Positions 52,730-64,000 of a stretch of 64,000 nucleotides of DNA are shown here, one piece after another. Source of the stretch: a bacterium (lineage in GTDB: Bacteria; Electryoneota; RPQS01); assembly GCA_016721565.1 (NCBI GenBank), contig JADKHW010000006.1, positions 31,286 through 95,285 of the forward strand, written 5' to 3'. Positions within the stretch are counted from its first letter, which is position 1. Each line of letters starts with the position of its first letter. The notes beneath the pieces are model-generated. The model saw nothing but the letters and a program-made list of their open reading frames with translations. It did no database searches and was not told the DNA's origin. The position numbers and the translations under genes are program-made.

Positions 52730-53866
52730 TTATCCGAATAGGCCTTGGCCGGATCTTCGTTGTCGCCACCATAGGTAGAGTGCGACTAAGGCGAAGAGGA
52801 CGTTGGGCGCCCACATTGCTGAGGCGGGAGTGACTGTGCCGCGATCGGCAAGGTCTTCACCGGCGATTAGGAAGACCCAATAGATTAAGAAGAAGGCCAT
52901 GCTGTAGCCTGCGGAGACGCCGATGCCTGATCTGCGCACCATTTGACCTAAGAGTCCGCCGAGTGCGGCGAAGATTAAGCAGGCTGCGGGGATGGAAAAC
53001 TTTTTATGAATTTCGACCCACAACCGCGAGATATTTTTGGCGTTCTTGTTAGCGTCGTTGCTCTTGTAGTTTTCGATGCGCTGCATCAATTGCGTGACAT
53101 CCATTTCACGGTCGCCGCGCCAATCGGTGCTTGTGCGTCTGAGCGACATGTCCGGTGCGTGAATGCGGAAGATGGCGCTCTGGAAAGCAATTCTATGATG
53201 CTCGCCCGGGCGGGCGCGGTCTGAGCGTAATATCTCGCCATCGTTCAAAGTGAACTCGAAACCTTCAAACCACTCTTCATATTTCAGTTTTCCGCGATCT
53301 GCAATCACCGTTCCGCCGAAACGCGGGTCGTCGTCTTCGTAAACCACGACGTTGTGAATTTCGGAAGTCTCGTTATCCACTTTTTGAGCGTAGAGCACAT
53401 GGCCCGGAATATCGGAGAGAAATACACCGGGTTCCAAAATCATGGCGGGTTTCAGGCGCTTGATGTCTGTTTGAAGTTGACGCGAGCGATAGTTGAGGTC
53501 GGGCAGAACGTTGTTATTGAAATAGGCCAAGCCAACTGCTGAAATCAAACCGAATAGAATTGCGGGCAAGAGCATCTGCCACGGGCCGACGCCTGAGGAG
53601 CGCAAGGCGGTGACTTCATTATCTGAGGACAATCTTCCGTAGGCCGACAAGACGGCGACCAACACGGCCATCGGTACGGCGAGCGCAATCATCCACGCCA
53701 AGTTCAGCGCGAAGAACTCGACTACCGTCATAACCGGAAGTCCCTTGCCCACAATCCGGCCCAGCATAGTGAAGACCAGATTCAGGACAAACAGGAAAAC
53801 GATCAGCGACAGGCTGAAGATGAAAGGGGGGATGAACTCCCGGGTCAGGTAGCGGAAGAGAGTCAT
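52730..53866 (-). CDS. LptF/LptG-family (YjgP/YjgQ) permease
   Basis: MTLFRYLTREFIPPFIFSLSLIVFLFVLNLV is the typical LptF/G N-terminus. 6-TM layout with periplasmic beta-jellyroll. 378 aa. Confidence 0.8.
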   Translation of the reverse strand: MTLFRYLTREFIPPFIFSLSLIVFLFVLNLVFTMLGRIVGKGLPVMTVVEFFALNLAWMIALAVPMAVLVAVLSAYGRLSSDNEVTALRSSGVGPWQMLLPAILFGLISAVGLAYFNNNVLPDLNYRSRQLQTDIKRLKPAMILEPGVFLSDIPGHVLYAQKVDNETSEIHNVVVYEDDDPRFGGTVIADRGKLKYEEWFEGFEFTLNDGEILRSDRARPGEHHRIAFQSAIFRIHAPDMSLRRTSTDWRGDREMDVTQLMQRIENYKSNDANKNAKNISRLWVEIHKKFSIPAACLIFAALGGLLGQMVRRSGIGVSAGYSMAFFLIYWVFLIAGEDLADRGTVTPASAMWAPNVLFALVALYLWWRQRRSGQGLFG

Positions 53867-53984
53867 TTGGGGGCGGAATTTGTTCGCAAGTTAATAAAAT
53901 TGAAGAACATTTCCCACAACCCCGCTTGCTTTTTCCCATAAATCGGATATACTTGCTGATTCGGGGACGGATTGCCCTCCGCCC

Positions 53985-54067
53985 GGAGGACTAGTCTAAT
54001 TGGTAAGGCAACGGTCTTGAAAACCGTCGGGCGAAAGCCTTTGGGAGTTCGAGTCTCCCGTCCTCCG
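53985..54067 (+). tRNA. tRNA-Ser (anticodon UGA), class II with long variable arm
   Basis: Acceptor GGAGGAC/GTCCTCC. Anticodon stem ACGGT-CTTGAAA-ACCGT is near-identical to the E. coli tRNA-Ser(UGA) arm. Variable arm GGGCGAAAGCC. T-arm GGGAG-TTCGAGT-CTCCC. Confidence 0.8.
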
Positions 54068-54101
54068 CAAGTATTATAGAAAACAGCATTTTGGGGTTCC
54101 T

Positions 54102-54614
54102 ATGCGGAAGGTTGTGCTGTTTGCGGCCTCCAGTCTGGACGGCTTTATTGCCAGACCTGACGGAGCTATTGACTGGCTCTTTCAGGATGGTGACTACGGT
54201 TTTTCAGAGTTCATGGAGACTGTCGATTCTGTCGTGCTGGGCCGCAAGACCTACGAGGTCGCCAAAGCGCTGGGAGACGATTCCCTGACGGCTGGGGAGC
54301 ATTGGATTGTCAGCCGCAATCCGGACAAGCACGCCGGAGGCAAGGCGCGCTTCGGGACTTTGGATCAGGTTGGCGATTGGCTGAGATCATCGGTGTCCGA
54401 AAAAGCGGTTTGGCTGATCGGCGGAGGTGAATTGACTGCGGCATTTTTGGATCGCGGTTGGCTGAACGAAATTGTGCTGGCGATTCATCCGCGTTTGTTG
54501 GGCATGGGGATTGGCATCAGTCCGAATCTGCTGAACGACGCTGTGCTGACTTATCGCAAGCATAAGGTCTTTGACAATGGATTGATACAAGTTTGGTACG
54601 ATGTGGCTCGCTGA
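54102..54614 (+). CDS. Dihydrofolate reductase-family protein (RibD C-terminal domain type)
   Basis: MRKVVLFAASSLDGFIARPDGAIDWL...VVLGRKTYE is the typical RibD_C/YwjB-like pattern. 170 aa. Confidence 0.75.
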   Translation: MRKVVLFAASSLDGFIARPDGAIDWLFQDGDYGFSEFMETVDSVVLGRKTYEVAKALGDDSLTAGEHWIVSRNPDKHAGGKARFGTLDQVGDWLRSSVSEKAVWLIGGGELTAAFLDRGWLNEIVLAIHPRLLGMGIGISPNLLNDAVLTYRKHKVFDNGLIQVWYDVAR

Positions 54615-54632
54615 GGCCACCAAAGAATTTCA

Positions 54633-54722
<90 letters not shown>

Positions 54723-54844
54723 ATTGCGCACAAGTACTTGATTATAGTGCTTGTGCGTTTGATATTTTGGAGTGAAGTGCCAAGTATGTGCCAAGTGTTC
54801 TAAGTGGCCGGCACGCCCAAAATAGACCTAAAGGCCAAATCAAA

Positions 54845-55970
54845 ATGAAAAGACCAGACACGCCGAATGTGCGTTCCCGAAAGAATCCAAGCGGTGAACG
54901 CGTGTACTTCGTCGACTACTTCGACTTTGAAAAGAACAAGCGAGTACGCGAAGTCGTTGGTCCGCGAAAGGCTGAAGCAGATCGTCGGGCAGCCGAAATC
55001 TATCAGCAACGAAAGGATGAGTACTTAGGCGTTGCCGTGCCGACGGCCAATGACATTACCCTGGGCGAGCTTATCGACGCATTCTTCCGTAGCAAAGTAG
55101 GTCGCGTTGCGCCTTCAACAATCAAGCGGTATAGAATTCATGCAGCGCACTTAGTTGCCTTTGTCAACAAGAATTTCCCCAAAGTCAAGAACATTCGAGC
55201 GATTCGCAAGGTCTACATCGAGGAACTTTTTGAAGCTTTGCGACGGCAAGCAATGGAGCCCAAGACCCTAAACGCACAACTTCAATTTGTGAAGGCAATC
55301 TTCATCTTCGCCGAACACGAAGGGTATCTTACTGAAAGCCCTGCGAAACGAATCAAACCGTTTCGCGAGACCAAGCAATCCCAAGCAGTGCCATACTGGT
55401 CGAAAATCGAAGTTGTTTCGATTCTTGCGGAAGTGAAACAGGGTGGAGGACGCCTATGAATTCTTGTATCACACGGGGCTGCGTAAGGGCGAACTTTCCA
55501 ATCTCACTTGGGATGATGTTGACCTTGATCACGACCCTCCTTCAATTGCCATTCAAGCAAAAGATGATTGGACAACGAAAACCTTGAAGCGGCGAATCGT
55601 TCCGCTGAATACAAGAGCAGCGGAGATAATCAAACGTCAGGCTCGAAGCAAAAAACACAACTACGTTTTCAAAGCTCCAGAAGGTGGGCAAATCCACCCA
55701 GATAAGATTTATCGCGAACTGAAACGCGCACTGGCTGTCTTGAATCTCGAAGGTGATGTTCACCAGTGGCGACACACATTTGCATCCCATCTTGTGATGA
55801 GTGGAGTTGATATCGCTACGGTCTCCAAACTATTAGGGCATCATTCCATCGAAAAAAGCCATGAAATACCCCCTCTTGCTCCTGGACCACTTGGCGGCGG
55901 GTGTGAGATCACTTGGCGCAAAGGGAAAGAGTGGGGGACGACGCAAACTTTACATCATTTTATGCCTTGA
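54845..55970 (+). pseudogene. Tyrosine recombinase/phage integrase, disrupted by a frameshift near 55443-55459 and a probable second one in an A6 run near 55853
   Basis: N-terminal SAM-like/core-binding domain ORF (54845..55459) and catalytic-domain ORF (55443..55970) are in different frames. The catalytic ORF has R..HxxR (HQWRHTFASHL) and LLGHHSIEK, but the terminal Tyr motif is out of frame. Deleting one A restores ...MKY...LDHL. Confidence 0.7.
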
Positions 55971-55986
55971 TTCTGGCATAAGAAAT

Positions 55987-56018
55987 TAAAGAAGCAAGAG
56001 CTCTGCATTGTGCAGGGC
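55987..56018 (+). terminator. Rho-independent terminator after integrase
   Basis: AAGAGCTCTGCA-TTG-TGCAGGGCTCTT followed by TTCGTTT. Confidence 0.65.
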
Positions 56019-56050
56019 TCTTTTCGTTTCCACCCCCCAAAGGAGTTCCC

Positions 56051-56263
56051 ATGAAAGTCAAAGTCCTCTGCCTTGGCCGCTCGGCCAAGGAAATCAACGT
56101 CAGTGACGGTACGACCGTCGAACAAGCCATCGCGGAATGCGGATTCCCGAAGGATTCGAGCTATACCCGGCACCTGAACGGCAGCCCGTGTTTTGACACG
56201 GATATTCTGGTCGACAACGCCGTGTTGACGTTGGTGCCACAAGTGAAAGGCGGGGGTTGTTAG
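56051..56263 (+). CDS. Ubiquitin-like beta-grasp protein (ThiS/MoaD-like) ending in GGG-C
   Basis: 70 aa. MKVKVL...HLNGSPCFDTDILVDNAVLTLVPQVKGGGC. RBS AAAGGAG 6 nt upstream. The C-terminal Gly-Gly is followed by a single Cys, as in precursor Ubls trimmed by JAB peptidases. Confidence 0.75.
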   Translation: MKVKVLCLGRSAKEINVSDGTTVEQAIAECGFPKDSSYTRHLNGSPCFDTDILVDNAVLTLVPQVKGGGC

Positions 56264-56346
56264 ACAGCGTTCCTGACTGTCTACCAATTAAGGGAGGGCT
56301 GCGGTTCAAGTAACCGTGGCCCTCTCTTTCCTCCGGAGGAACGCTT

Positions 56347-56415
56347 ATGATTGAACAACAAATCCGCACGTTGTGCCGATTCTATGAACAGAAATGGCAT
56401 GTGCCGATTACATAA
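56347..56415 (+). CDS. Leader mini-ORF (22 aa, MIEQQIRTLCRFYEQKWHVPIT) with strong RBS, overlapping the E2 start via TAATG
   Basis: GGAGGA sits 6 nt upstream of the ATG. Its stop TAA overlaps ATG 56415 of the downstream gene. No RBS precedes any candidate start of the E2 gene itself. Confidence 0.4.
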   Translation: MIEQQIRTLCRFYEQKWHVPIT

Positions 56416-57455
56416 TGACACAAGACATGGACCTGCTTTGTTGGCACGAAGTTGGGATTGCTGTCCGTACTCATACGGATCCTGATTCAGCATTCTCAAA
56501 GAATGTCTCAGGTGATCCGCTTGTGATGGAATCAGTGCTTGTCGGCAAGGTTTCACCGACTTGGATTGTGCTGTACGGTGCGCCTCGTGTCGATGTGACT
56601 TCGAACATCCTTGACGCACATCTTCCACGTATGTGCCGGACGTTTAGAGAACGTCAAAGGGAGACATTGATCGACACGATGCAAACTGTGGCTGCCGAAC
56701 GGAAGCATGAACTTGCAATCTCGCTTAGAGATGACCGATACGAACTCGAACGACTTTGCATGCAGGTGATGACTCTATCACGCAAAGTCGAAGGAGACCG
56801 TGAGATACTGAACATGTTCAGCAGGGCACCGGAATTCATCAAAGCGAAGGCGACGCGGACATTCGTGGAAATGATGCGACTGGTTCCCAGTTGTTATTCG
56901 CATATCAACGTCGTCGAGAAGTCTGTGCTTGCCGAGACGTATCCGATCACACTGGAACACGATGGTGGAAGTTACAACTTCGAACCTTATGTGGTTGAAG
57001 TGGACTTGGACAAGGGCAAAGTGTTGATCAGCGGCGGAACCGAATGCAACGGTTACATACATCCGCATGTCACGGATGATCCTAACAACATTTGTTGGGG
57101 TAACATCGGACATCTTGTATCTCGACTGACTGGTGAACTTGACTTGCATGGACTGCTCCAACTTGTTCATCAGTTTCTGCATAGCTACAATAGTTCAGAT
57201 CCGTTTCAAAAGATCGAGAAGTGGGATCCCGATTGGGTTGAAGACGAAGATGACAATGATTCATACTGTTCGTGGTGTGATGATTACGGCCACGATGTTT
57301 CAGAATGTGACTATTGCAGTTGGTGTGAACACTGTGATCAGTACGACGAACACAGTGAAGAGAACTGCCCAAACCGTCCCAAAGATGAAGATGAAGACGA
57401 AGGAGAGGAGGAAGCCGATGCAGAACTTGCAGAGGACACCGCGACAGCCGGTTGA
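56415..57455 (+). CDS. E2-like (UBC-fold) ubiquitin-conjugating enzyme homolog with N-terminal extension and C-terminal CxxC-rich acidic tail (alternative start 56394)
   Basis: UBC-like core: beta-strands (YPITLEHDGGSYNFEPYVVEVDLDKGKVLI), HPN-like motif with catalytic Cys (YIHPHVTDDPNNICWGNIGHL), following helix (LHGLLQLVHQFLHSY). Tail: CSWCDDYGHDVSECDYCSWCEHC...C then DEDEDEGEEE. Confidence 0.65.
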   Translation: MTQDMDLLCWHEVGIAVRTHTDPDSAFSKNVSGDPLVMESVLVGKVSPTWIVLYGAPRVDVTSNILDAHLPRMCRTFRERQRETLIDTMQTVAAERKHELAISLRDDRYELERLCMQVMTLSRKVEGDREILNMFSRAPEFIKAKATRTFVEMMRLVPSCYSHINVVEKSVLAETYPITLEHDGGSYNFEPYVVEVDLDKGKVLISGGTECNGYIHPHVTDDPNNICWGNIGHLVSRLTGELDLHGLLQLVHQFLHSYNSSDPFQKIEKWDPDWVEDEDDNDSYCSWCDDYGHDVSECDYCSWCEHCDQYDEHSEENCPNRPKDEDEDEGEEEADAELAEDTATAG

Positions 57456-58131
57456 TGCTGGTGTGAAGATTCAAGTCGAGGCCGAGGCTATGCAGAAGCT
57501 ATGGCTGTGGACTGATTTTGCGAGAGGTGAGGTTAGTTGCCTCGGACTCGTGGATGAAGTTGTTAGCACGGACACTGGTCGCACGACGGCGTTGATTGTC
57601 ACCGACTTCTTTCTGGTAAAGCAGGATTGCACTTCCGACGAAACCGATATGGATGTTGCGGATGTTGCCAGATTGATATCCGAACTGGAAGCGAAGGGAA
57701 TTGACTCGCGTAAGCTTCGTTGCTGGGCACACTCGCATGCGACGATGAGCGTATTCTGGTCAGGTCAGGATGAATCATGTATCAGTGGACTTGCCAATGC
57801 TGAGTGGCTACTCAGCTTGGTCGTGAATAAACGTCGTGACACACAGATGCGCCTTGACCAGTTCCATCCCAGTCATATGTACATTCCTGATGTCGTGTGG
57901 GAAGTGAAATATCCACTGGTGGACGGCCTCGCAGAAGCATGCTTTGATGAGTTCAAGGCCAAAGTCCACGAAGGTACTTTCATGCCAAGAACACGCGATG
58001 TTGTCAGTGGAAGAGATCGTCTTTGGAATGAGCTGGACCATGCGAGGGAACGAGGTGCTTTGACAATGGATGACCTTGATGACGAATTGAATTGGCTGGG
58101 GATTGAACGTGACGACTTTGAACCATATTAG
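57418..58131 (+). CDS. JAB/MPN (JAMM) metalloprotease, predicted Ubl-processing/deconjugating peptidase
   Basis: JAMM motif HSHATMSVFWSGQD (HxHx7Sx2D) with upstream Glu (GEVSCLGLV). RBS GAAGGAGAGGAGG precedes ATG 57418. Overlaps the E2 3' end by 38 nt. Confidence 0.8.
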   Translation: MQNLQRTPRQPVDAGVKIQVEAEAMQKLWLWTDFARGEVSCLGLVDEVVSTDTGRTTALIVTDFFLVKQDCTSDETDMDVADVARLISELEAKGIDSRKLRCWAHSHATMSVFWSGQDESCISGLANAEWLLSLVVNKRRDTQMRLDQFHPSHMYIPDVVWEVKYPLVDGLAEACFDEFKAKVHEGTFMPRTRDVVSGRDRLWNELDHARERGALTMDDLDDELNWLGIERDDFEPY

Positions 58132-58139
58132 GAGACCAC

Positions 58140-58788
58140 ATGAACGACATGCGATTCTTACGTCAAAAAGATGTTGTCGATACCGAGAAGCTTGCGAACC
58201 TGCAAGTAACGTTGATCGGTCTGGGGAGCATTGGGAGCGTCACTGGTCTGTATCTTGCCAAGATGGGCGTGGTCAAATTGACCACCTTCGATTCAGACAT
58301 CGTCGATGTCCACAATGTCAGCAATCAGGCTTATGGGATGTCTGATGTTGGATTGCTGAAGACTGATGCATTTGCAACGCTTGTCGAGAACCAAACTGGA
58401 GTGCTTCCAAACACCGTAGGTCTACAGTATGATGGTCGACAGCTTTCCGGTGTCGTGATTTCTGCGTTGATTCCATGAGTCTCGTAAAACGATCTGGAAA
58501 TCTATACGAGAACAGCCAAGCGTCAGGTTGTATGTTGACGCACGCATGGGTCTTGAAACACTGGTTGTCCACGCAGTGAGACCACAACTCCTAATCGACA
58601 GACTGAAGTATTCACAATCAATTGTACCTGACGACCAAGCTCTGCAAGAACCATGCACGGCACGAACGATTTGTTACACGCCTTTGATGGCCGCGGTTGT
58701 TTGCAATCTTGTGAAACGGTTTATCAATCAGGAAGTACTGCCAAGCCAAGTCACTCTTGATCTTGCAACATTCACTTTGATGGCCTGA
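58140..58788 (+). CDS. E1-like (ThiF/MoeB-type) adenylyltransferase, interrupted by a +1 frameshift around 58470-58478
   Basis: Frame 0 (58140..58478): Rossmann VTLIGLGSIGSVTGLYLAKMGVVKLTTFDSDIVDVHNVSNQ (GxGxxG plus D...N.Q). Frame +1 opens at 58471 and continues to 58788 with ThiF-like C-terminal segments (YVDARMG..., EPCTARTICYTPLMAAVVCNLVKRFI). Confidence 0.65.
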
Positions 58789-58901
58789 GCGGAATTATCA
58801 GTGGAATCCCCGAAAAACTCGTGAAGTCATAAGACCGGCAAGCCACTGACCGTGATATAAAGGGATTTGTGAATAAGCGGATCCGCTGAGGCAGGTTACA
58901 A

Positions 58902-59306
58902 ATGGAATTCACGCCCACCGAAGAGGTGTCTGCCAAACTGACGCCTGCTGAGATAATTGTGCAAGACCAGCCAGGCCGGTTGCTTCTTCCTGCACATGAG
59001 CTTGTTGTGCCGGCAGCGCCCGTCACCTTTTGTCACGCAGCAAGGGATAACATCATGCCCACTTTTCAATTCACGACACACGAACGTTGGGATCATGTTG
59101 TAGAGTATTCTGTTAATGCGCCAACTCTCGAAACCGCTGTTCGAATGGCAGTGACGGGAAAAGTGACATATACCAGTGCAGAATATCAAGAGGGTAATCC
59201 AGTTCAAGAAGTTTTGTCCATTCTTGAGGTGATTAATCACGACAACAAAGAGGTAATCAACAATGAAAAGAAGCTGAAGAAACTGCTTGACAACTCCGTT
59301 GGCTGA
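58902..59306 (+). CDS. Hypothetical 134-aa protein (last gene of the Ubl operon block)
   Basis: ORF followed by a strong terminator. No recognisable motif. Confidence 0.4.
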   Translation: MEFTPTEEVSAKLTPAEIIVQDQPGRLLLPAHELVVPAAPVTFCHAARDNIMPTFQFTTHERWDHVVEYSVNAPTLETAVRMAVTGKVTYTSAEYQEGNPVQEVLSILEVINHDNKEVINNEKKLKKLLDNSVG

Positions 59307-59312
59307 TAATAC

Positions 59313-59338
59313 AAAGATAGGGGGGAACCCCTATCTTT
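59313..59338 (+). terminator. Rho-independent terminator
   Basis: AAGATAGGGG-GGAA-CCCCTATCTT-TT perfect 10-bp stem. Confidence 0.8.
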
Positions 59339-59624
59339 TAGCCTTTTCTGGACATATTTGTCGACTTTATAAGCCTCTATTGGTGGTTGCTATTGATAAA
59401 CATGGAAGAACGATGTAAATTAAGTATGGGCAAGTTAACCGACCTCAACTGATTGAATTACTGGCATTTGTTCATGACGCGACCCGAACTGACTGTAGAA
59501 GAATTTACGCACTACACAAAATGAAATCCTAACCATGAATCTCTTGACTAAGTCAAGTCGAAATCCTTTCTTGTTCTCAGGTCTTGTGAATCTGACGCGC
59601 ACACTTAGCTTGGAGACCACGAAT

Positions 59625-60887
59625 ATGACGCGAATTCTATCTGTATTCAATCTTTTGAAGCGGGTGGGGTTCGCGGTTTTGGTACTGGGGGTGACAAATG
59701 GGCACTCGCAATCATGGGAGCTCATGGATGAATTACCTGAACGTTCGGAAGTTGAGTGCATTACAATTGATGCCCAGACGGGAAGCATATTTGCAGGCAC
59801 GGCTCGAATTTTTGGTTTTCCGGAATGTGGAGGAATTTACAAGTATAATCAAATAGATGGAATTTGGGAATATAAGCAGTTTAGAGAAACAACAATAAGT
59901 AATATCCTCAGACTCCAGAATGACCATACATATATTTATGCATGCACAGAAGAGGGATTAGCACGGTCCAATGACGACGGTGAATCATGGCAGCTTTTTG
60001 ACGATCATCCGGGAAATTCTTCAAACATAGCTATGTCTCCCAACGATAGTACCCTATGGGCAGTTGGTCTTTCTCCTGTGGAGTCGACACGGCTCTATTT
60101 AGTTAGAGACGGCATTGAGTGGGAGCTTATTGATTCATCGCTTCCATGGACTGGTGGTCTCGGTTTTTCAAGTACGGATTCGACAATTCTCTACATGGCC
60201 ACAAACAACTTTTGCTATCGCCTCAATCTACAAACGAGAGTAAGGGAGCAGATTTTCCCATGGAATTTTTATGGCTACAGAACATTATACTTGTCACACG
60301 AAGAGCCTAATGTCTTTTTCTTAGAGCTTCATTCGATCTTCCGTTATGACGAAGAGACTTCCTTGTATGATTCGGTCTTCTTTCCAGCGGGCAGTGGACG
60401 TGCCAACAGATGGGCGATCTCTTCATCGGAAGAAATAACCGTCGCAGCCGATAGCATGCTACTTGAAATCAACAGCGATTTGACTTCTGTTGACATTCTT
60501 ACGCCGCCTGAACTCGGATTAGGCGGAAGTGCAATTGGGATCGATACTGTCACAGGCATACGGTATGTAGCAGTTGAAAACAGAATTTATGTCGAATTGC
60601 CAACGGCTGTCGACAATATAGGTCGGCCTGAAGAATTCCCTCTTTCTGTCTTCCCCAATCCCTTCAATTCGAGTATATCTATTTCCCTCCGCATTGCTCC
60701 ATATCAAAGAACGACTTTGTCATTATATGACATACTAGGCCGTGAAGTGGACGTCTTTCATCTCGGACGAATTAATCGCGAGACAATTCATTACACAGCT
60801 CCTTCATCATTAGCAAATGGCATCTATTTCATTCGAGTAGAGATTGGGGAGTGGCACGCGCTACAAAAGGTCATCTTGTTGAAGTGA
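59625..60887 (+). CDS. Secreted beta-propeller-like protein with T9SS C-terminal sorting domain (paralog family of 50480..52282)
   Basis: Signal peptide MTRILSVFNLLKRVGFAVLVLGV is nearly identical to that of the first T9SS protein. C-terminal FPNPFNSSISISL...GIYFIRV...KVILLK. The true start is 59625, not 59535. Confidence 0.75.
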   Translation: MTRILSVFNLLKRVGFAVLVLGVTNGHSQSWELMDELPERSEVECITIDAQTGSIFAGTARIFGFPECGGIYKYNQIDGIWEYKQFRETTISNILRLQNDHTYIYACTEEGLARSNDDGESWQLFDDHPGNSSNIAMSPNDSTLWAVGLSPVESTRLYLVRDGIEWELIDSSLPWTGGLGFSSTDSTILYMATNNFCYRLNLQTRVREQIFPWNFYGYRTLYLSHEEPNVFFLELHSIFRYDEETSLYDSVFFPAGSGRANRWAISSSEEITVAADSMLLEINSDLTSVDILTPPELGLGGSAIGIDTVTGIRYVAVENRIYVELPTAVDNIGRPEEFPLSVFPNPFNSSISISLRIAPYQRTTLSLYDILGREVDVFHLGRINRETIHYTAPSSLANGIYFIRVEIGEWHALQKVILLK

Positions 60888-60994
60888 CTTGCGGTGGGCT
60901 TGCCAATTGGTTGATTGATTTCTTAGGTTAACGATACTCTCTGTCAAGACGCGCAATTCAAATATCTGCACACCATTCGAACAGGAGGCTGCAA

Positions 60995-62437
60995 ATGCTA
61001 CCGCGCAAGTTCTGCACCATTTCTATTACCGCCGTTGTCTTTCTCTGTCTATTATGGTCTTTTGGATTCGTGATTGCAAGTACGAATGTCCAAAGTGGTG
61101 TTTGGAAGGGCATACCAGTTGAATTTAGGAAAGGGGAAGCGTTACTCGTCACAGAGGATGAAGAAATTTGGACTGATCTTACGACACTGCGCACCACATT
61201 GTCAGTCACGACGCCTGATTCGACAACAGGAGGTGGTTATTTTATGATTCAATTTCCTGAAACGTCTAATGTGCTAAACATTTGCACTCAGTTTGAATCT
61301 GCAAATGGCGTAATCGCATGCATTCCGAGTCTTCGTATGCGCAAAGCATCGAATGATGCACACTTTGAGTATCAATGGAACATGTACAATGATGGAAGTC
61401 TTTATGCGGAAACTGAAGGTCATGACATCATGTTGGATGAAGCGCATGCAATATCTCGAGGTAACAGTGATGTCAAACTTGTTATTATTGATTCGGGCGT
61501 GCCTTGGGATTTTGATCTTGATCAACCGACTCATCTTGACCTAAACAACGATAATTTCCCCGAACATATTACTCGGGCAACGGAATTCCCAGAGGGTTTC
61601 ATTAACCCCTCTGACGTAGAGGGGCATGGAACTCAGGTGGCCGGCATTGCACTTGGGGAGGCTGACAACAATTATGGAATTGCTGGGGTATGTCCAGAGT
61701 GCAATGGGGTAGTTTATAAAGTGTGGAATAGTGATGAATCAGACAATTTTCTTGCACCTACTATGATGGGGATGTGGCGAGCTGCAAATTTAGAAGGCGA
61801 AGGGGACGATTATGACGATCCAACGGTAATATTGGTACCTTCGACACTCTTTACTCAAGGAATTGAAGGTGATCTTGATGCCTTGCGAGCCCTTGAAAAC
61901 TTGCTCAAGGACCTCGTTTATAGAAATCATAACAATCAGTGGCCTGATTATTCGACAAGAAATCTCTTCATATTCCCAACAGGCAACGAGAATCTTCATT
62001 ATGTTCCATATCCGGCAAGATTTGCGAGTTATGATAGAATTGAGAGTGGGGTCATTTCCGTAGGCGCGACAAACATATTTGATAATCGGTGGTGGGTTAA
62101 TGACGGCATTGGTTCAAATTATTGGGGAAGTAACGTTACGTTGTCAGCTCCAGGCGGAGGTGCAACGGAACCAGGGTGCGAGCCCGGAATTCTATCCAGT
62201 GATATCGTTAGTAGTAGGCAACATTCATGCTATTGGGGACTGCTGCAAGGTCCACATTCCGATTTTCTTTCGAACAAAGGTACTTCTATTGCGGCTGCCC
62301 ATGTTGCGGGGTTGGCTGGCCTAGTGTGGTCACTGAGTCCTAACCTAACAAACTGGCAGGTCAAGAACTACATGGTTGCCGGAGTAGATGCCATTGCGGA
62401 TGAAATGGGCGAAGGACGCGAGGTTGGTGCAGGGTGA
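60995..62437 (+). CDS. Subtilisin-like serine protease (peptidase S8) with signal peptide; ends at an in-frame TGA inside a conserved motif
   Basis: Catalytic triad motifs D (IIDSGV), H (GHGTQVAGIA), S (GTSIAAAHVAGLAGLV). The stop interrupts the G-x-G-(x)-I-N-A subtilase motif (EVGAG*INAFK). Confidence 0.8.
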   Translation: MLPRKFCTISITAVVFLCLLWSFGFVIASTNVQSGVWKGIPVEFRKGEALLVTEDEEIWTDLTTLRTTLSVTTPDSTTGGGYFMIQFPETSNVLNICTQFESANGVIACIPSLRMRKASNDAHFEYQWNMYNDGSLYAETEGHDIMLDEAHAISRGNSDVKLVIIDSGVPWDFDLDQPTHLDLNNDNFPEHITRATEFPEGFINPSDVEGHGTQVAGIALGEADNNYGIAGVCPECNGVVYKVWNSDESDNFLAPTMMGMWRAANLEGEGDDYDDPTVILVPSTLFTQGIEGDLDALRALENLLKDLVYRNHNNQWPDYSTRNLFIFPTGNENLHYVPYPARFASYDRIESGVISVGATNIFDNRWWVNDGIGSNYWGSNVTLSAPGGGATEPGCEPGILSSDIVSSRQHSCYWGLLQGPHSDFLSNKGTSIAAAHVAGLAGLVWSLSPNLTNWQVKNYMVAGVDAIADEMGEGREVGAG

Positions 62438-64000
62438 ATCAATGCGTTCAAAACATTGCTGCGGGTCCCCGTAGAGAAAAGGCTCCAAAGGGATCTCACG
62501 ATCAGGAAGAGTCCCTATCAAGGCGATTCTCCATATCAGTTGGACCGCGGAGACCTTGTGGTCCCTCCATTAGTCACCTTAACGATTGAGGCTGGTGTCT
62601 CCATCAATTTGCATCTTTCAGCGATTAGAGTTGAGCCAGGCGGTCGACTAGTTATCCTTGGTGAAGAAGGAAACGAAGTTGTGCTTCGTGGTTATTACCA
62701 AGATCAAATTCACGAGGGTGAGAGTGGTTGGACTGGCATAATTGCAGACGATGCGTCGTTAAGCATAAGTCACTGTGTGATCGAACGCGCAGAAAATGGA
62801 ATCGTACTTGGTGGTTCAAGCAATTTGCGGATGGATAACTCTCGCATAGTTAGTTCATACACGAATGGCTTGCGAGTATTGTCTGGAAGCCGCGCCACAT
62901 TGACGGATTGTGACGTACTTTTCAGTGCTGGAAGTGGTATTGATGCCCGCAATGCAGCTTTGGTTTCTTTGGAGCGCTGTGAAATTTCACATAACAATAC
63001 CCAAGGACAGTTGTTCAGTGGCGGCATCTTTGCGTTTTTTACTAACCAGTTAATGATCGAATGCTGTGAAATCACTGATAATGTCGGCGCAGGTATATAC
63101 GGATGGTGGTCGAACATTAGACTCACCCCAACTTCTGGAAATCCTACAATTGGTGGCCCAGGATATAGCGATTTCTCGGGCAACTCGTATATAAACGGAC
63201 AGTGCTTATTCAGGAGCTGTAGCGTACAAATGGAAGGCGGAAGAAACCGCTTTGGTGCTCCTCCTGCAGCACCGGAAGGTTGGTATTACCTCGAATTTGC
63301 TGATCATCCCGCTGTCATTGAACCTGTTAACTTGAATGGCAATCACTGGAGTATTACAGAGCCTGGGGAGGAGAACTGGATACTTGACCACATCCTTGCA
63401 ACCTCCCTTGACATTGTTCAAGATGGATTTGACTATGAGACCTCCTGGGATCTCTGCGACAACTCGACAATGCCGACCCTTTCTGTTTGCGATTCAGTTT
63501 GGGATACGGCAATTTTCAAGTTAGCACAAGACAGTTTCGAAACTGCATCAGTTCAGTTCAAAAACGTTTTGACTTCGGGTGATCAATGCGTCTTAAAGCC
63601 ACTTTCGCCACGTGTGATTGTGTCAAGTGAAAAATCTGCAGGTACTACGTACGGCGATATTGTGGATTACCTAACAGCGCGTGAAGACACAACAACCGAT
63701 TACGCCCTCAAATTCTCCCTAGCGCAAGCATCGGCAGAAGCAAAAGGCTATGATGGCGAGTTCACAGAGGCGATTTCAGAACTTGACTCGCTTGCGACAG
63801 ATTCTTACACTTCAATTTCTGATTCTGTCTCTTGTCTTACTTCCATAGCTAGCCTCGAGTTCTTACAGGCCATGAGAACTTTAACAAGTGCGGAAAGTGT
63901 TATGATGGCTGTGGATACTTTACAGTCTGCTCTCGATAACCTAACGTCATTCTTGGTCGGCGACGAAGTTTTCGCGCCGACACTGGAGCTTACGCCGCCT
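62438..64000 (+). CDS. Right-handed parallel beta-helix repeat region (3' partial), in frame with and probably originally contiguous with the S8 protease
   Basis: Same frame as 60995..62437, with no stop through to the window end. Repeats such as NGIVLGGSSNLRMDNSRIVSSYTNGLRVLSGSRATLTDCDVLFSAGSGIDARNAALVSLERCEISHNNTQGQ. The opposite-strand ORFs here are low-complexity antisense artefacts. Confidence 0.6.
   Translation, partial: MNAFKTLLRVPVEKRLQRDLTIRKSPYQGDSPYQLDRGDLVVPPLVTLTIEAGVSINLHLSAIRVEPGGRLVILGEEGNEVVLRGYYQDQIHEGESGWTGIIADDASLSISHCVIERAENGIVLGGSSNLRMDNSRIVSSYTNGLRVLSGSRATLTDCDVLFSAGSGIDARNAALVSLERCEISHNNTQGQLFSGGIFAFFTNQLMIECCEITDNVGAGIYGWWSNIRLTPTSGNPTIGGPGYSDFSGNSYINGQCLFRSCSVQMEGGRNRFGAPPAAPEGWYYLEFADHPAVIEPVNLNGNHWSITEPGEENWILDHILATSLDIVQDGFDYETSWDLCDNSTMPTLSVCDSVWDTAIFKLAQDSFETASVQFKNVLTSGDQCVLKPLSPRVIVSSEKSAGTTYGDIVDYLTAREDTTTDYALKFSLAQASAEAKGYDGEFTEAISELDSLATDSYTSISDSVSCLTSIASLEFLQAMRTLTSAESVMMAVDTLQSALDNLTSFLVGDEVFAPTLELTPP

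What the first reader, a model, noticed from the sequence alone, without database searches (positions are those of the whole stretch)
58440..58540. E1-like gene is split by a +1 frameshift between the Rossmann half and the C-terminal half
Frame 0 ends ...GRQLSGVVISALIP* at 58478. Frame +1 is open from 58471 and continues with E1-like sequence (HESRKTIWKSIREQPSVRLYVDARMGLETLVVHAV...EPCTARTICYTPLMAAVVCNLV) to 58788. Joined, the product would be a roughly 210-aa minimal E1. The possible explanations are a sequencing/assembly error, real pseudogenisation of the system, or programmed frameshifting. Either way it determines whether the Ubl system can function.
Basis: seen in the sequence. Interest (0 to 1): 0.5.

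Follow-up and report, generated by a model that had tools for sequence, protein, structure and literature searches.

The report
Broken E1 gene, two one-base deletions
A small ubiquitin-activating-type (E1) gene in a bacterial ubiquitin-like operon is broken by two single-base deletions 14 bases apart, which is either an assembly error or a very recent knock-out and is not programmed frameshifting.

Summary
ORF 58140..58478 (112 aa, ThiF Rossmann half) stops at TGA, and another frame, open from 58471 to 58788, carries the rest of the same protein.

The lesion is not one +1 shift. Compared with a near-identical sister contig and 10 intact homologous loci, the window lacks one T after 58465 and one T after 58479. 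The 14 nt between them still encode VDSMS, including the invariant Asp111, in the third frame.

More than 200 homologues are contiguous 217-220 aa proteins. A single +1 shift would give a product lacking V110, D111, S112 and M113. Programmed frameshifting and a natural split gene are therefore rejected.

The gene closes a Ubl-E2-JAMM-E1 operon next to tRNA-Ser and an integrase. The E2 gene also has a 1-nt deletion and the integrase has at least 2 frameshifts. Seventeen core genes checked are intact.

All lesions are small indels. There are no nonsense codons, no changes at 68 conserved E1 columns, and substitutions keep the third-codon-position bias of intact genes. I favour consensus error in a strain-variable island (~55%) over recent real inactivation (~38%). 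Only reads or PCR can decide. This is an ordinary finding.

The parts
54632..54721 (+). tRNA-Ser(GCT), left border of the island
   Evidence: ARAGORN. No direct repeat of its 3' end was found downstream.
54788..55970 (+). Tyrosine integrase gene broken into at least 3 frames
   Evidence: The SAM-like N-terminal domain is in ORF 54788-55459. Phage_integrase profile positions 28-160 of 172 are in ORF 55443-55970. The C-terminal ..MKY..DHLAAGV.. is in a third frame. The catalytic R, HxxR, H and Y are all still encoded.
56051..56263 (+). Ubl gene (70 aa, ends ..QVKGGGC), intact
   Evidence: 96% identical to the Ubl of intact locus L002. Weak ThiS match.
56347..57455 (+). E2-like gene with a 1-nt deletion after about 56411 that puts its first 22 codons out of frame
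57418..58131 (+). JAMM-type peptidase gene (237 aa), intact
   Evidence: One tblastn segment covers residues 1-238. E38, H105-S-H107, S115 and D118 are invariant (HxHx7SxxD). Block 57961-58080 is 96.7% identical to the metagenome contig L031, from another sample.
58140..58478 (+). E1 gene, 5' part as written (112-aa ORF, Rossmann half, stops at TGA 58476-58478)
   Evidence: Pfam ThiF E=1.8e-13. Translation.
58465..58466 (+). Deletion 1: one T missing between these two bases (GCtGTT)
   Evidence: DNA alignments with L001, L002, L003 and 8 further loci.
58466..58479 (+). 14 nt encoding V-D-S-M-S (invariant Asp111 codon GAT at 58469-58471), readable only in the third frame
   Evidence: Read directly from the sequence. 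Alignments. Repair test.
58479..58480 (+). Deletion 2: one T missing between these two bases (GAGtTCT)
58480..58788 (+). E1 gene, 3' part (SRKTIW...TLMA*), in the +1 frame relative to the 5' part. It carries the invariant DARMGLET motif and C173.
58692..58697 (+). Site of an in-frame loss of one codon (MAA-VVC; the family has MAAS/MAAA)
   Evidence: There is no gap at this column in 65 homologues.
58789..59055 (+). Right edge of the strain-variable cassette. From about 59040-59055 onwards the sequence is nearly identical to the sister contig.

Best explanation
The locus is an ordinary, normally contiguous 217-aa E1 (ThiF-type adenylation enzyme) gene. It is the last gene of a Ubl-E2-JAMM-E1 operon carried in a strain-variable island next to tRNA-Ser and an integrase.

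In this sequence the gene carries two single-T deletions 14 nt apart, after 58465 and after 58479. They put the catalytic Asp motif (VDSMS) out of frame and shift the 3' half into another frame. As written, no functional E1 can be made.

Shown: the anatomy of the lesion, the contiguity of the family, and the loss of invariant residues under any single shift.

Inferred: the two deletions, the 1-nt deletion in the E2 gene and the integrase frameshifts are most likely indel-type consensus errors of the assembly. They would arise in a region where strains of the population carry different alleles, rather than as mutations in the cell.
For: 1. The lesion is two 1-nt deletions relative to the sister contig L001 and 10 intact loci.
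2. There are 228 homologues. Nearly all of the 120 listed are 217-220 aa with 100% coverage. Of 95 fetched loci, 69 give one full-length in-frame match. Besides the window, only L001 (fetched a second time as L016) and L012 are frameshifted.
3. After the two Ts are put back, the protein deviates at 0 of 68 columns that are at least 95% conserved.
4. Every lesion in the island is a small indel, with at least 5 frameshifts in about 4 kb. There are no nonsense codons, and all catalytic residues of the integrase, E2, JAMM and E1 genes are still encoded.
5. Seventeen core genes of the window cover their Pfam profiles end to end.
6. Substitutions between the window and L001 cassettes are third-position biased (41/17/128, ratio 0.45). 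This is the same as intact-intact pairs (0.32-0.52) and unlike true relics of this gene (0.63-0.93, with stop codons). Few neutral substitutions therefore accompany at least 12 frameshifting indels across the two assemblies, which is not a natural mutation spectrum.
7. In the 58321-58680 block the two assemblies differ by about 6 substitutions but 3 indels. Two deletions 14 nt apart in an otherwise pristine gene are improbable as independent mutations.
8. The flank differs at a G6/G5 homopolymer. Related genomes are MAGs, and several have megabase contigs.
Against: - The frameshifts are confined to the island. A uniform error rate would have broken many of the core genes, so an island-specific cause such as low or mixed coverage has to be assumed and cannot be checked without reads.
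- Part of the mosaic structure is certainly real. The window's JAMM block 57961-58080 matches a contig from a different metagenome sample at 96.7%.
- Neither deleted T lies in a long homopolymer. One is in CTG and one in TT.
- The 3-nt codon loss at about 58694 is not a typical base-calling error.
- Real decay does occur in this family: 3'-half relics with stop codons, and a 4-nt insertion in L012.
- The sequencing platform of the window is unknown.
Confidence: 0.55

Rival explanations
1. Genuine recent pseudogenisation. The island was acquired at tRNA-Ser and is no longer maintained. Its integrase, E2 and E1 genes have each picked up small deletions in the cell, so the Ubl system is dead in this strain.
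For: - Lesions are restricted to the island while core genes are intact.
- The sister contig carries the same cassette at the same site with other, more numerous frameshifts.
- The operon is a swappable cassette with several alleles in a conserved context and several copies per genome. Dead relics of E1 occur elsewhere, as expected for fast-turnover accessory or defence genes.
- The unique codon loss at about 58694 suggests damage beyond simple miscalls.
Against: - There are no nonsense mutations and no change at any conserved column.
- The codon-position pattern is indistinguishable from intact genes. True relics of the same gene show relaxed constraint.
- The ratio of indels to neutral substitutions is far above what bacterial mutation normally gives.
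- Two independent deletions 14 nt apart are unlikely.
- Flanks are 99.8% identical while the cassette is 91.7% identical, so in-situ decay cannot explain the divergence.
Confidence: 0.38
2. A scar of recombination at a recurrent mid-gene breakpoint. Codons of about 106-127 of this E1 family would be a preferred crossover or insertion point during cassette exchange, and the window's deletions were left by an imprecise event there.
For: - L012 has an independent 4-nt insertion directly after the Asp111 codon.
- Six 3'-half relics start at codons 106, 109, 118, 119, 125 and 127. Two of them lie just downstream of full E1 genes.
Against: - Window and L001 are near-identical for over 100 nt on both sides of the lesion, so no allele switch occurs there.
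- The pile-up of relic starts just upstream of codon 131 can be a detection bias of the DARMGL search pattern.
- The N-half versus C-half identity asymmetry of L012 is normal for distant members, so L012 is not a chimera.
Confidence: 0.05
3. Programmed +1 ribosomal frameshifting at CCA-U-GAG, or a naturally split two-chain E1.
For: An in-frame TGA lies at the point where the other frame opens, as in prfB-type sites.
Against: - The break is not conserved. Homologues and the sister strain are in frame.
- No Shine-Dalgarno-like stimulator and no known shift-prone codon are present.
- The +1 product lacks invariant V110, D111, S112 and M113.
- The break sits between strand 105-108 and helix 113-123 of the Rossmann core.
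- The 3' half has no plausible start codon with a ribosome-binding site.
Confidence: 0.02

Closest known systems
BilABCD (bacterial ISG15-like) ubiquitination operons, Type I and II (PMC10557695)
   Same: - The gene order is the same: Ubl, E2, JAB/JAMM peptidase, E1.
- The Ubl ends in glycines followed by one extra residue for trimming.
- The E2 has a conserved Cys.
- The operon occurs in variable or mobile regions.
   Different: - Type II BilD is a multidomain E1 (inactive plus active adenylation domains plus a Cys domain). Here E1 is a single 217-aa adenylation domain.
- The E2 here keeps a canonical HPH..C motif and carries an N-terminal alpha/beta domain, a long coiled coil and a Cys/His-rich tail.
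- No PADLOC model hits the E2 or the JAMM protein.
ThiF / MoeB / UBA5-type homodimeric adenylation enzymes (PF00899)
   Same: - GxGxxG Rossmann motif and the Asp motif after strand 4.
- Best fold matches are UBA5, ThiF and MoeB.
- Small single-domain size.
   Different: - The C-terminal half is too diverged for sequence profiles.
- The operon partners are an E2 and a JAMM peptidase, not sulfur-transfer enzymes.
Caldiarchaeum-type E1/E2/RING/Rpn11 operon (PMC5654768, PMC3082918)
   Same: - Separate Ubl, E1, canonical-looking E2 and Rpn11-like JAMM genes in one operon.
- The only JAMM-family PDB match of the JAMM profile, itself not significant, is the Caldiarchaeum Rpn11-like protein (E about 1).
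   Different: - There is no separate small RING gene. A Cys/His-rich tail is fused to the E2 instead, and its fold was not tested.
- The hosts are bacterial (Calditrichota / KSB1-type MAGs).
Bub (6E/DUF6527) operons and Cap2/Cap3 of Type II CBASS (PMC11601596)
   Same: - E1-type adenylation domain plus E2 fold plus JAMM chemistry.
- Cap2 E1-E2 models are the PADLOC hits of the N-terminal half.
   Different: - There are no E1-E2, Ubl-E2 or JAB-E1 fusions, no DUF6527 protease and no CD-NTase.
- The E2 has Cys, not Ser. The E1 has an invariant Cys173 in the presumed crossover loop.

Membership tests
ThiF/MoeB/E1 adenylation domain (PF00899) | N-terminal Rossmann fold with a GxGxxG nucleotide-binding loop | tested here: met
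   GLGSIGS at residues 27-33. Pfam ThiF E=1.8e-13 on the 112-aa ORF. PDB profile hits to UBA5, Cap2, ThiF and MoeB.
ThiF/MoeB/E1 adenylation domain (PF00899) | Conserved Asp after strand 4 (Mg-ATP site), in frame with the rest of the domain | tested here: not met
   The GAT codon at 58469-58471 is present but lies in the 14-nt out-of-frame segment. It is met only after both Ts are restored. D111 is invariant in 65 homologues.
ThiF/MoeB/E1 adenylation domain (PF00899) | One contiguous adenylation domain spanning both halves | tested here: met
   Met for the family: 217-220 aa proteins. The AlphaFold model (pLDDT 74) aligns to ThiF over 167 columns and to MoeB over 144 columns at 2.6 A. The window copy is interrupted.
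BilABCD operons | Gene order Ubl-E2-JAB-E1 | tested here: met
   56051-56263, 56347-57455, 57418-58131 and 58140-58788. The order is as given in PMC10557695.
BilABCD operons | Multidomain E1 (IAD + AAD + Cys domain) as in Type II BilD | tested here: not met
   The family is 217-220 aa with a single domain.
BilABCD operons | Sequence-profile match of the E2 and the DUB to known defence-system models | tested here: not met
   PADLOC gives 0 families for the E2-like and JAMM proteins. E1 hits only Cap2 E1-E2 models among the 25 shown.
BilABCD operons | Anti-phage activity and Ubl-target conjugation | not testable with these tools
   Needs experiments.
Programmed +1 frameshift genes (prfB type) | Frameshift site conserved among orthologues | tested here: not met
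   Of 95 loci, 69 have a single in-frame match. The sister strain is in frame at this site.
Programmed +1 frameshift genes (prfB type) | The shifted product is the functional protein | tested here: not met
   The +1 product lacks invariant V110, D111, S112 and M113.
UBC/E2 fold (for the 362-aa partner) | UBC fold with a catalytic Cys after an HPN-like motif | tested here: met
JAMM/JAB metallopeptidase (for the 238-aa partner) | E...HxHx7SxxD motif | tested here: met
   E38, H105, H107, S115 and D118 are invariant in 10 orthologues. Profile matches to Pfam and PDB are not significant, so fold membership rests on the motif and the operon context.
Bub (6E) operons | DUF6527 protease BubE, Ser-type E2, fused Ubl-E2 or JAB-E1 | tested here: not met
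   The genes are separate, the E2 has Cys, and there is no additional conserved gene. Definition from PMC11601596.

The most novel reading that the evidence does not exclude
The middle of this E1 gene (codons about 106-127, around the Asp111 motif) is a recurrent breakpoint of the family. Lesions arose independently there in the window and in L012, and six 3'-half relics begin there, two of them directly behind intact E1 genes. If this is not a detection bias, it would point to a cassette-exchange mechanism that cuts or recombines inside E1 and leaves the old 3' half behind. The window's paired deletions would then be a scar of such an event.
Probability: 0.06. Interest if true: 0.45.

Novelty: new member of a known kind. 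Interest (0 to 1): 0.18.

Why it matters
For annotation: the two ORFs should be one E1 (pseudo)gene, and the operon should not be scored as a working Ubl system from this sequence alone. The E2 gene is also hit.

For biology, little changes. A frameshifted accessory gene in a metagenome-type assembly is common.

The useful by-products are:
- a clean description of an unannotated Ubl-E2-JAMM-minimal-E1 operon family in Calditrichota/KSB1-type bacteria, whose E2 and JAMM proteins have no Pfam family;
- a simple test (indel-only lesions, intact conserved columns, unchanged codon-position bias) that separates probable consensus errors from true relics of the same gene.

Tried and rejected
- Looked for the window's own assembly. 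The exact products of the N-terminal E1 ORF, the JAMM gene and the Ubl gene are not on record. The S8 peptidase finds only the sister contig. The genome-contig scan returns no copy of the window.
- Searched metagenome contigs for the junction with or without the two Ts: no hit.
- Looked for an att repeat of the tRNA-Ser 3' end: none. Direct repeats in 53800-60000 are only chance-sized.
- Tested whether overlapping core ORF pairs were split genes: they are separate complete genes.
- Thought the window's JAMM gene carried a compensated -1/-2 frameshift relative to L001. Rejected: that block is 96.7% identical to the intact allele of L031, so it is a genuine allele.
- Thought L012 was a chimera of two E1 lineages joined at the lesion. 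Rejected: a more conserved C-terminal half is normal in distant members.
- Promoter and terminator scans were no better than shuffles.
- Composition shows only a mild GC drop in the island.

Full report
**1. Observation**

The ORF 58140..58478 encodes 112 aa ending ..GRQLSGVVISALIP and stops at TGA 58476-58478. A second frame is open from 58471 and reads FHESRKTIWKSIREQPSVRLYVDARMGLETL... up to the stop at 58786-58788.

The first piece is a ThiF-type Rossmann half (Pfam PF00899, E=1.8e-13). The second piece has no Pfam or PADLOC match on its own. A search with the joined sequence nevertheless finds 228 homologues. Nearly all of the 120 listed are 217-220 aa, cover 100% of the query and are up to 83% identical.

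**2. Anatomy of the break**

The protein alignment shows the family consensus ..VVISAVDSMxSRxxIWKS.. at the junction. The window DNA reads att tct gc|gtt gat tcc atg ag|tct cgt aaa acg. The residues V-D-S-M-S are therefore encoded, but in the third frame.

DNA alignments with the near-identical sister contig L001 (GCA_964269295.1), with L002/L003 and with eight further loci were compared. The window lacks one T after 58465 (GCtGTT) and one T after 58479 (GAGtTCT). All other sequences have bases at both columns.

With both Ts restored, the 217-aa product matches all 68 family columns that are at least 95% conserved. A single +1 shift at CCA-U-GAG gives ..ISALIPESRK.., which lacks invariant V110, D111, S112 and M113.

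In the AlphaFold model of an intact member (pLDDT 74), the lesion lies between strand 105-108 and helix 113-123 of the Rossmann core. The model's best PDB matches are UBA5, ThiF, MoeB, SAE2 and Cap2. The window copy also has a unique in-frame loss of one codon (MAA-VVC, about 58694).

**3. Surroundings**

The intact operon, as seen in L002, is Ubl (70 aa), a 362-aa protein, a 238-aa protein and E1 (218 aa).

- **238-aa protein.** It has an invariant E...HSHx7SxxD JAMM motif, but no significant profile match.

The operon is therefore Ubl-E2-JAMM-E1, the gene order of BilABCD (PMC10557695). It differs from Bil in having a single-domain minimal E1 and a canonical-looking E2.

In the window:
- The Ubl gene (56051-56263) and the JAMM gene (57418-58131) are intact.
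- The E2 gene has a 1-nt deletion after about 56411, which puts its first 22 codons out of frame.
- Upstream lie tRNA-Ser(GCT) (54632-54721) and a tyrosine integrase read in three frames, so it has at least 2 frameshifts.
- Seventeen core genes, including flagellar and glycosyltransferase genes, cover their Pfam profiles end to end.

**4. Comparison with the sister assembly**

L001 matches window 59036-64000 at 99.8%, with 8 substitutions and one G6/G5 homopolymer difference. The cassette 56048-58911 is only 91.7% identical and is mosaic on a 100-300 bp scale. The left flank is unrelated. L001's cassette is even more fragmented, with at least 7 frame changes.

Some of the mosaicism is real. 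The window block 57961-58080 is 96.7% identical to the contig L031, which comes from a different metagenome sample. Contigs L022 and L031 share the downstream flank but carry other operon alleles. The operon is thus a swappable cassette. It is also multi-copy in related genomes.

**5. Real decay or artefact?**

Evidence pointing to an artefact:
- All lesions in the window's island are small indels. There are no nonsense codons, and all catalytic residues are still encoded.
- Window-L001 substitutions by codon position are 41/17/128, so (p1+p2)/p3 = 0.45. Intact-intact pairs give 0.32-0.52. Genuine E1 relics in other loci give 0.63-0.93 and contain stop codons.
- This leaves room for only about 8 neutral substitutions (upper bound about 30) against at least 12 frameshifting indels in the two assemblies. 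Natural bacterial mutation gives roughly ten substitutions per indel (my own knowledge, not tested here).
- In 58321-58680 the two assemblies differ by about 6 substitutions and 3 indels.
- Two independent deletions 14 nt apart in an otherwise pristine gene are unlikely as mutations. They are natural for a local consensus failure.

Evidence pointing to real decay:
- The lesions are confined to the island.
- The deleted Ts are not in long homopolymers.
- The codon loss is atypical for miscalls.
- Real decay occurs in this family.

I put consensus error at about 55%, recent real inactivation at about 38%, a recombination scar at about 5% and programmed or split expression at about 2%. Without reads this cannot be settled.

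**6. Programmed frameshifting**

This is rejected for three reasons. The break is not conserved: of 95 loci, 69 have one in-frame match, and the sister strain is in frame. There is no stimulatory context. The shifted product lacks the invariant Asp motif.

**7. Side observation**

L012, a low-coverage SPAdes-type contig, has a 4-nt insertion directly after the Asp111 codon. Six 3'-half relics of E1 start at codons 106-127, and two of them lie just behind intact E1 genes. This could mark a recurrent breakpoint. However, the search pattern anchored at codons 131-139 biases detection, and L012 is not a chimera.

**8. Verdict**

The feature is ordinary: a disrupted copy of a normally contiguous gene, probably an assembly artefact or at most a very recent pseudogene. 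The operon family itself is an uncharacterised relative of the known bacterial ubiquitination-like systems.

Noticed in passing
L013:479-772, L014:1193-1468, L031:2195-2521, L035:1013-1285, L083:466-786, L084:7765-8055 (also L079, L075): Orphan or extra 3'-half pieces of the E1 gene start at codons 106-127. Two lie 25 and 430 nt behind a full E1. Some carry stop codons, and their codon-position pattern is relaxed (0.63-0.93), so they are decaying relics that point to cassette replacement. The clustering of start points may be a search bias.
   Followed up: partly
L012:496-560: An independent frame break at the same spot as in the window: a 4-nt insertion directly after the Asp111 codon, in a distant homologue on a low-coverage SPAdes-type contig next to a type I restriction-modification methylase gene.
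   Followed up: partly
window 56347-57455 and family alignment A4: The E2-like partner has no Pfam family. Its predicted architecture is unusual: an N-terminal alpha/beta domain, a roughly 95-residue coiled coil, a UBC fold with invariant HPH..C, and a Cys/His-rich tail (CSWCDDYGHD..C..CSWCEHC) that could be a zinc or RING-like module fused to the E2. The tail fold was not tested.
   Followed up: partly
window 54788-55970: The tyrosine integrase next to tRNA-Ser(GCT) is read in three frames, so it has at least 2 frameshifts, yet all catalytic residues are still encoded. No att repeat was found.
   Followed up: partly
window 56048-59055 versus L001, L022, L031: The operon is a strain-variable cassette. 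Flanks are 99.8% identical to the sister contig but the cassette is 91.7% identical and mosaic. The right boundary lies at about 59040-59055, inside ORF 58902-59306. Other contigs share the right flank at about 95% but carry different operon alleles.
   Followed up: yes
L002, L096, L098: The operon is multi-copy in related genomes: three E1 paralogues on one 3.37-Mb contig and two on a 1.9-Mb contig. It repeatedly sits between a sigma-54 activator gene and genes for Por_Secre_tail / beta-helix giant proteins (T9SS cargo). The window shows only the downstream half of this: T9SS-cargo genes lie at 59535-64000, while tRNA-Ser and the integrase lie upstream.
   Followed up: no
window 59320-59325: A G6 run in the window corresponds to G5 in the sister contig. 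It is the only indel in 5 kb of otherwise identical flank, is intergenic and lies in a small hairpin. This is a typical homopolymer-length discrepancy between assemblies.
   Followed up: no
window 1-22700: The core of the window is a flagellar gene cluster (fliM, fliN, fliR, flhB, flhA, flhF, flgA, flgH, flgI, flgK, flgL) followed by a large block of glycosyltransferase genes. All look intact.
   Followed up: partly
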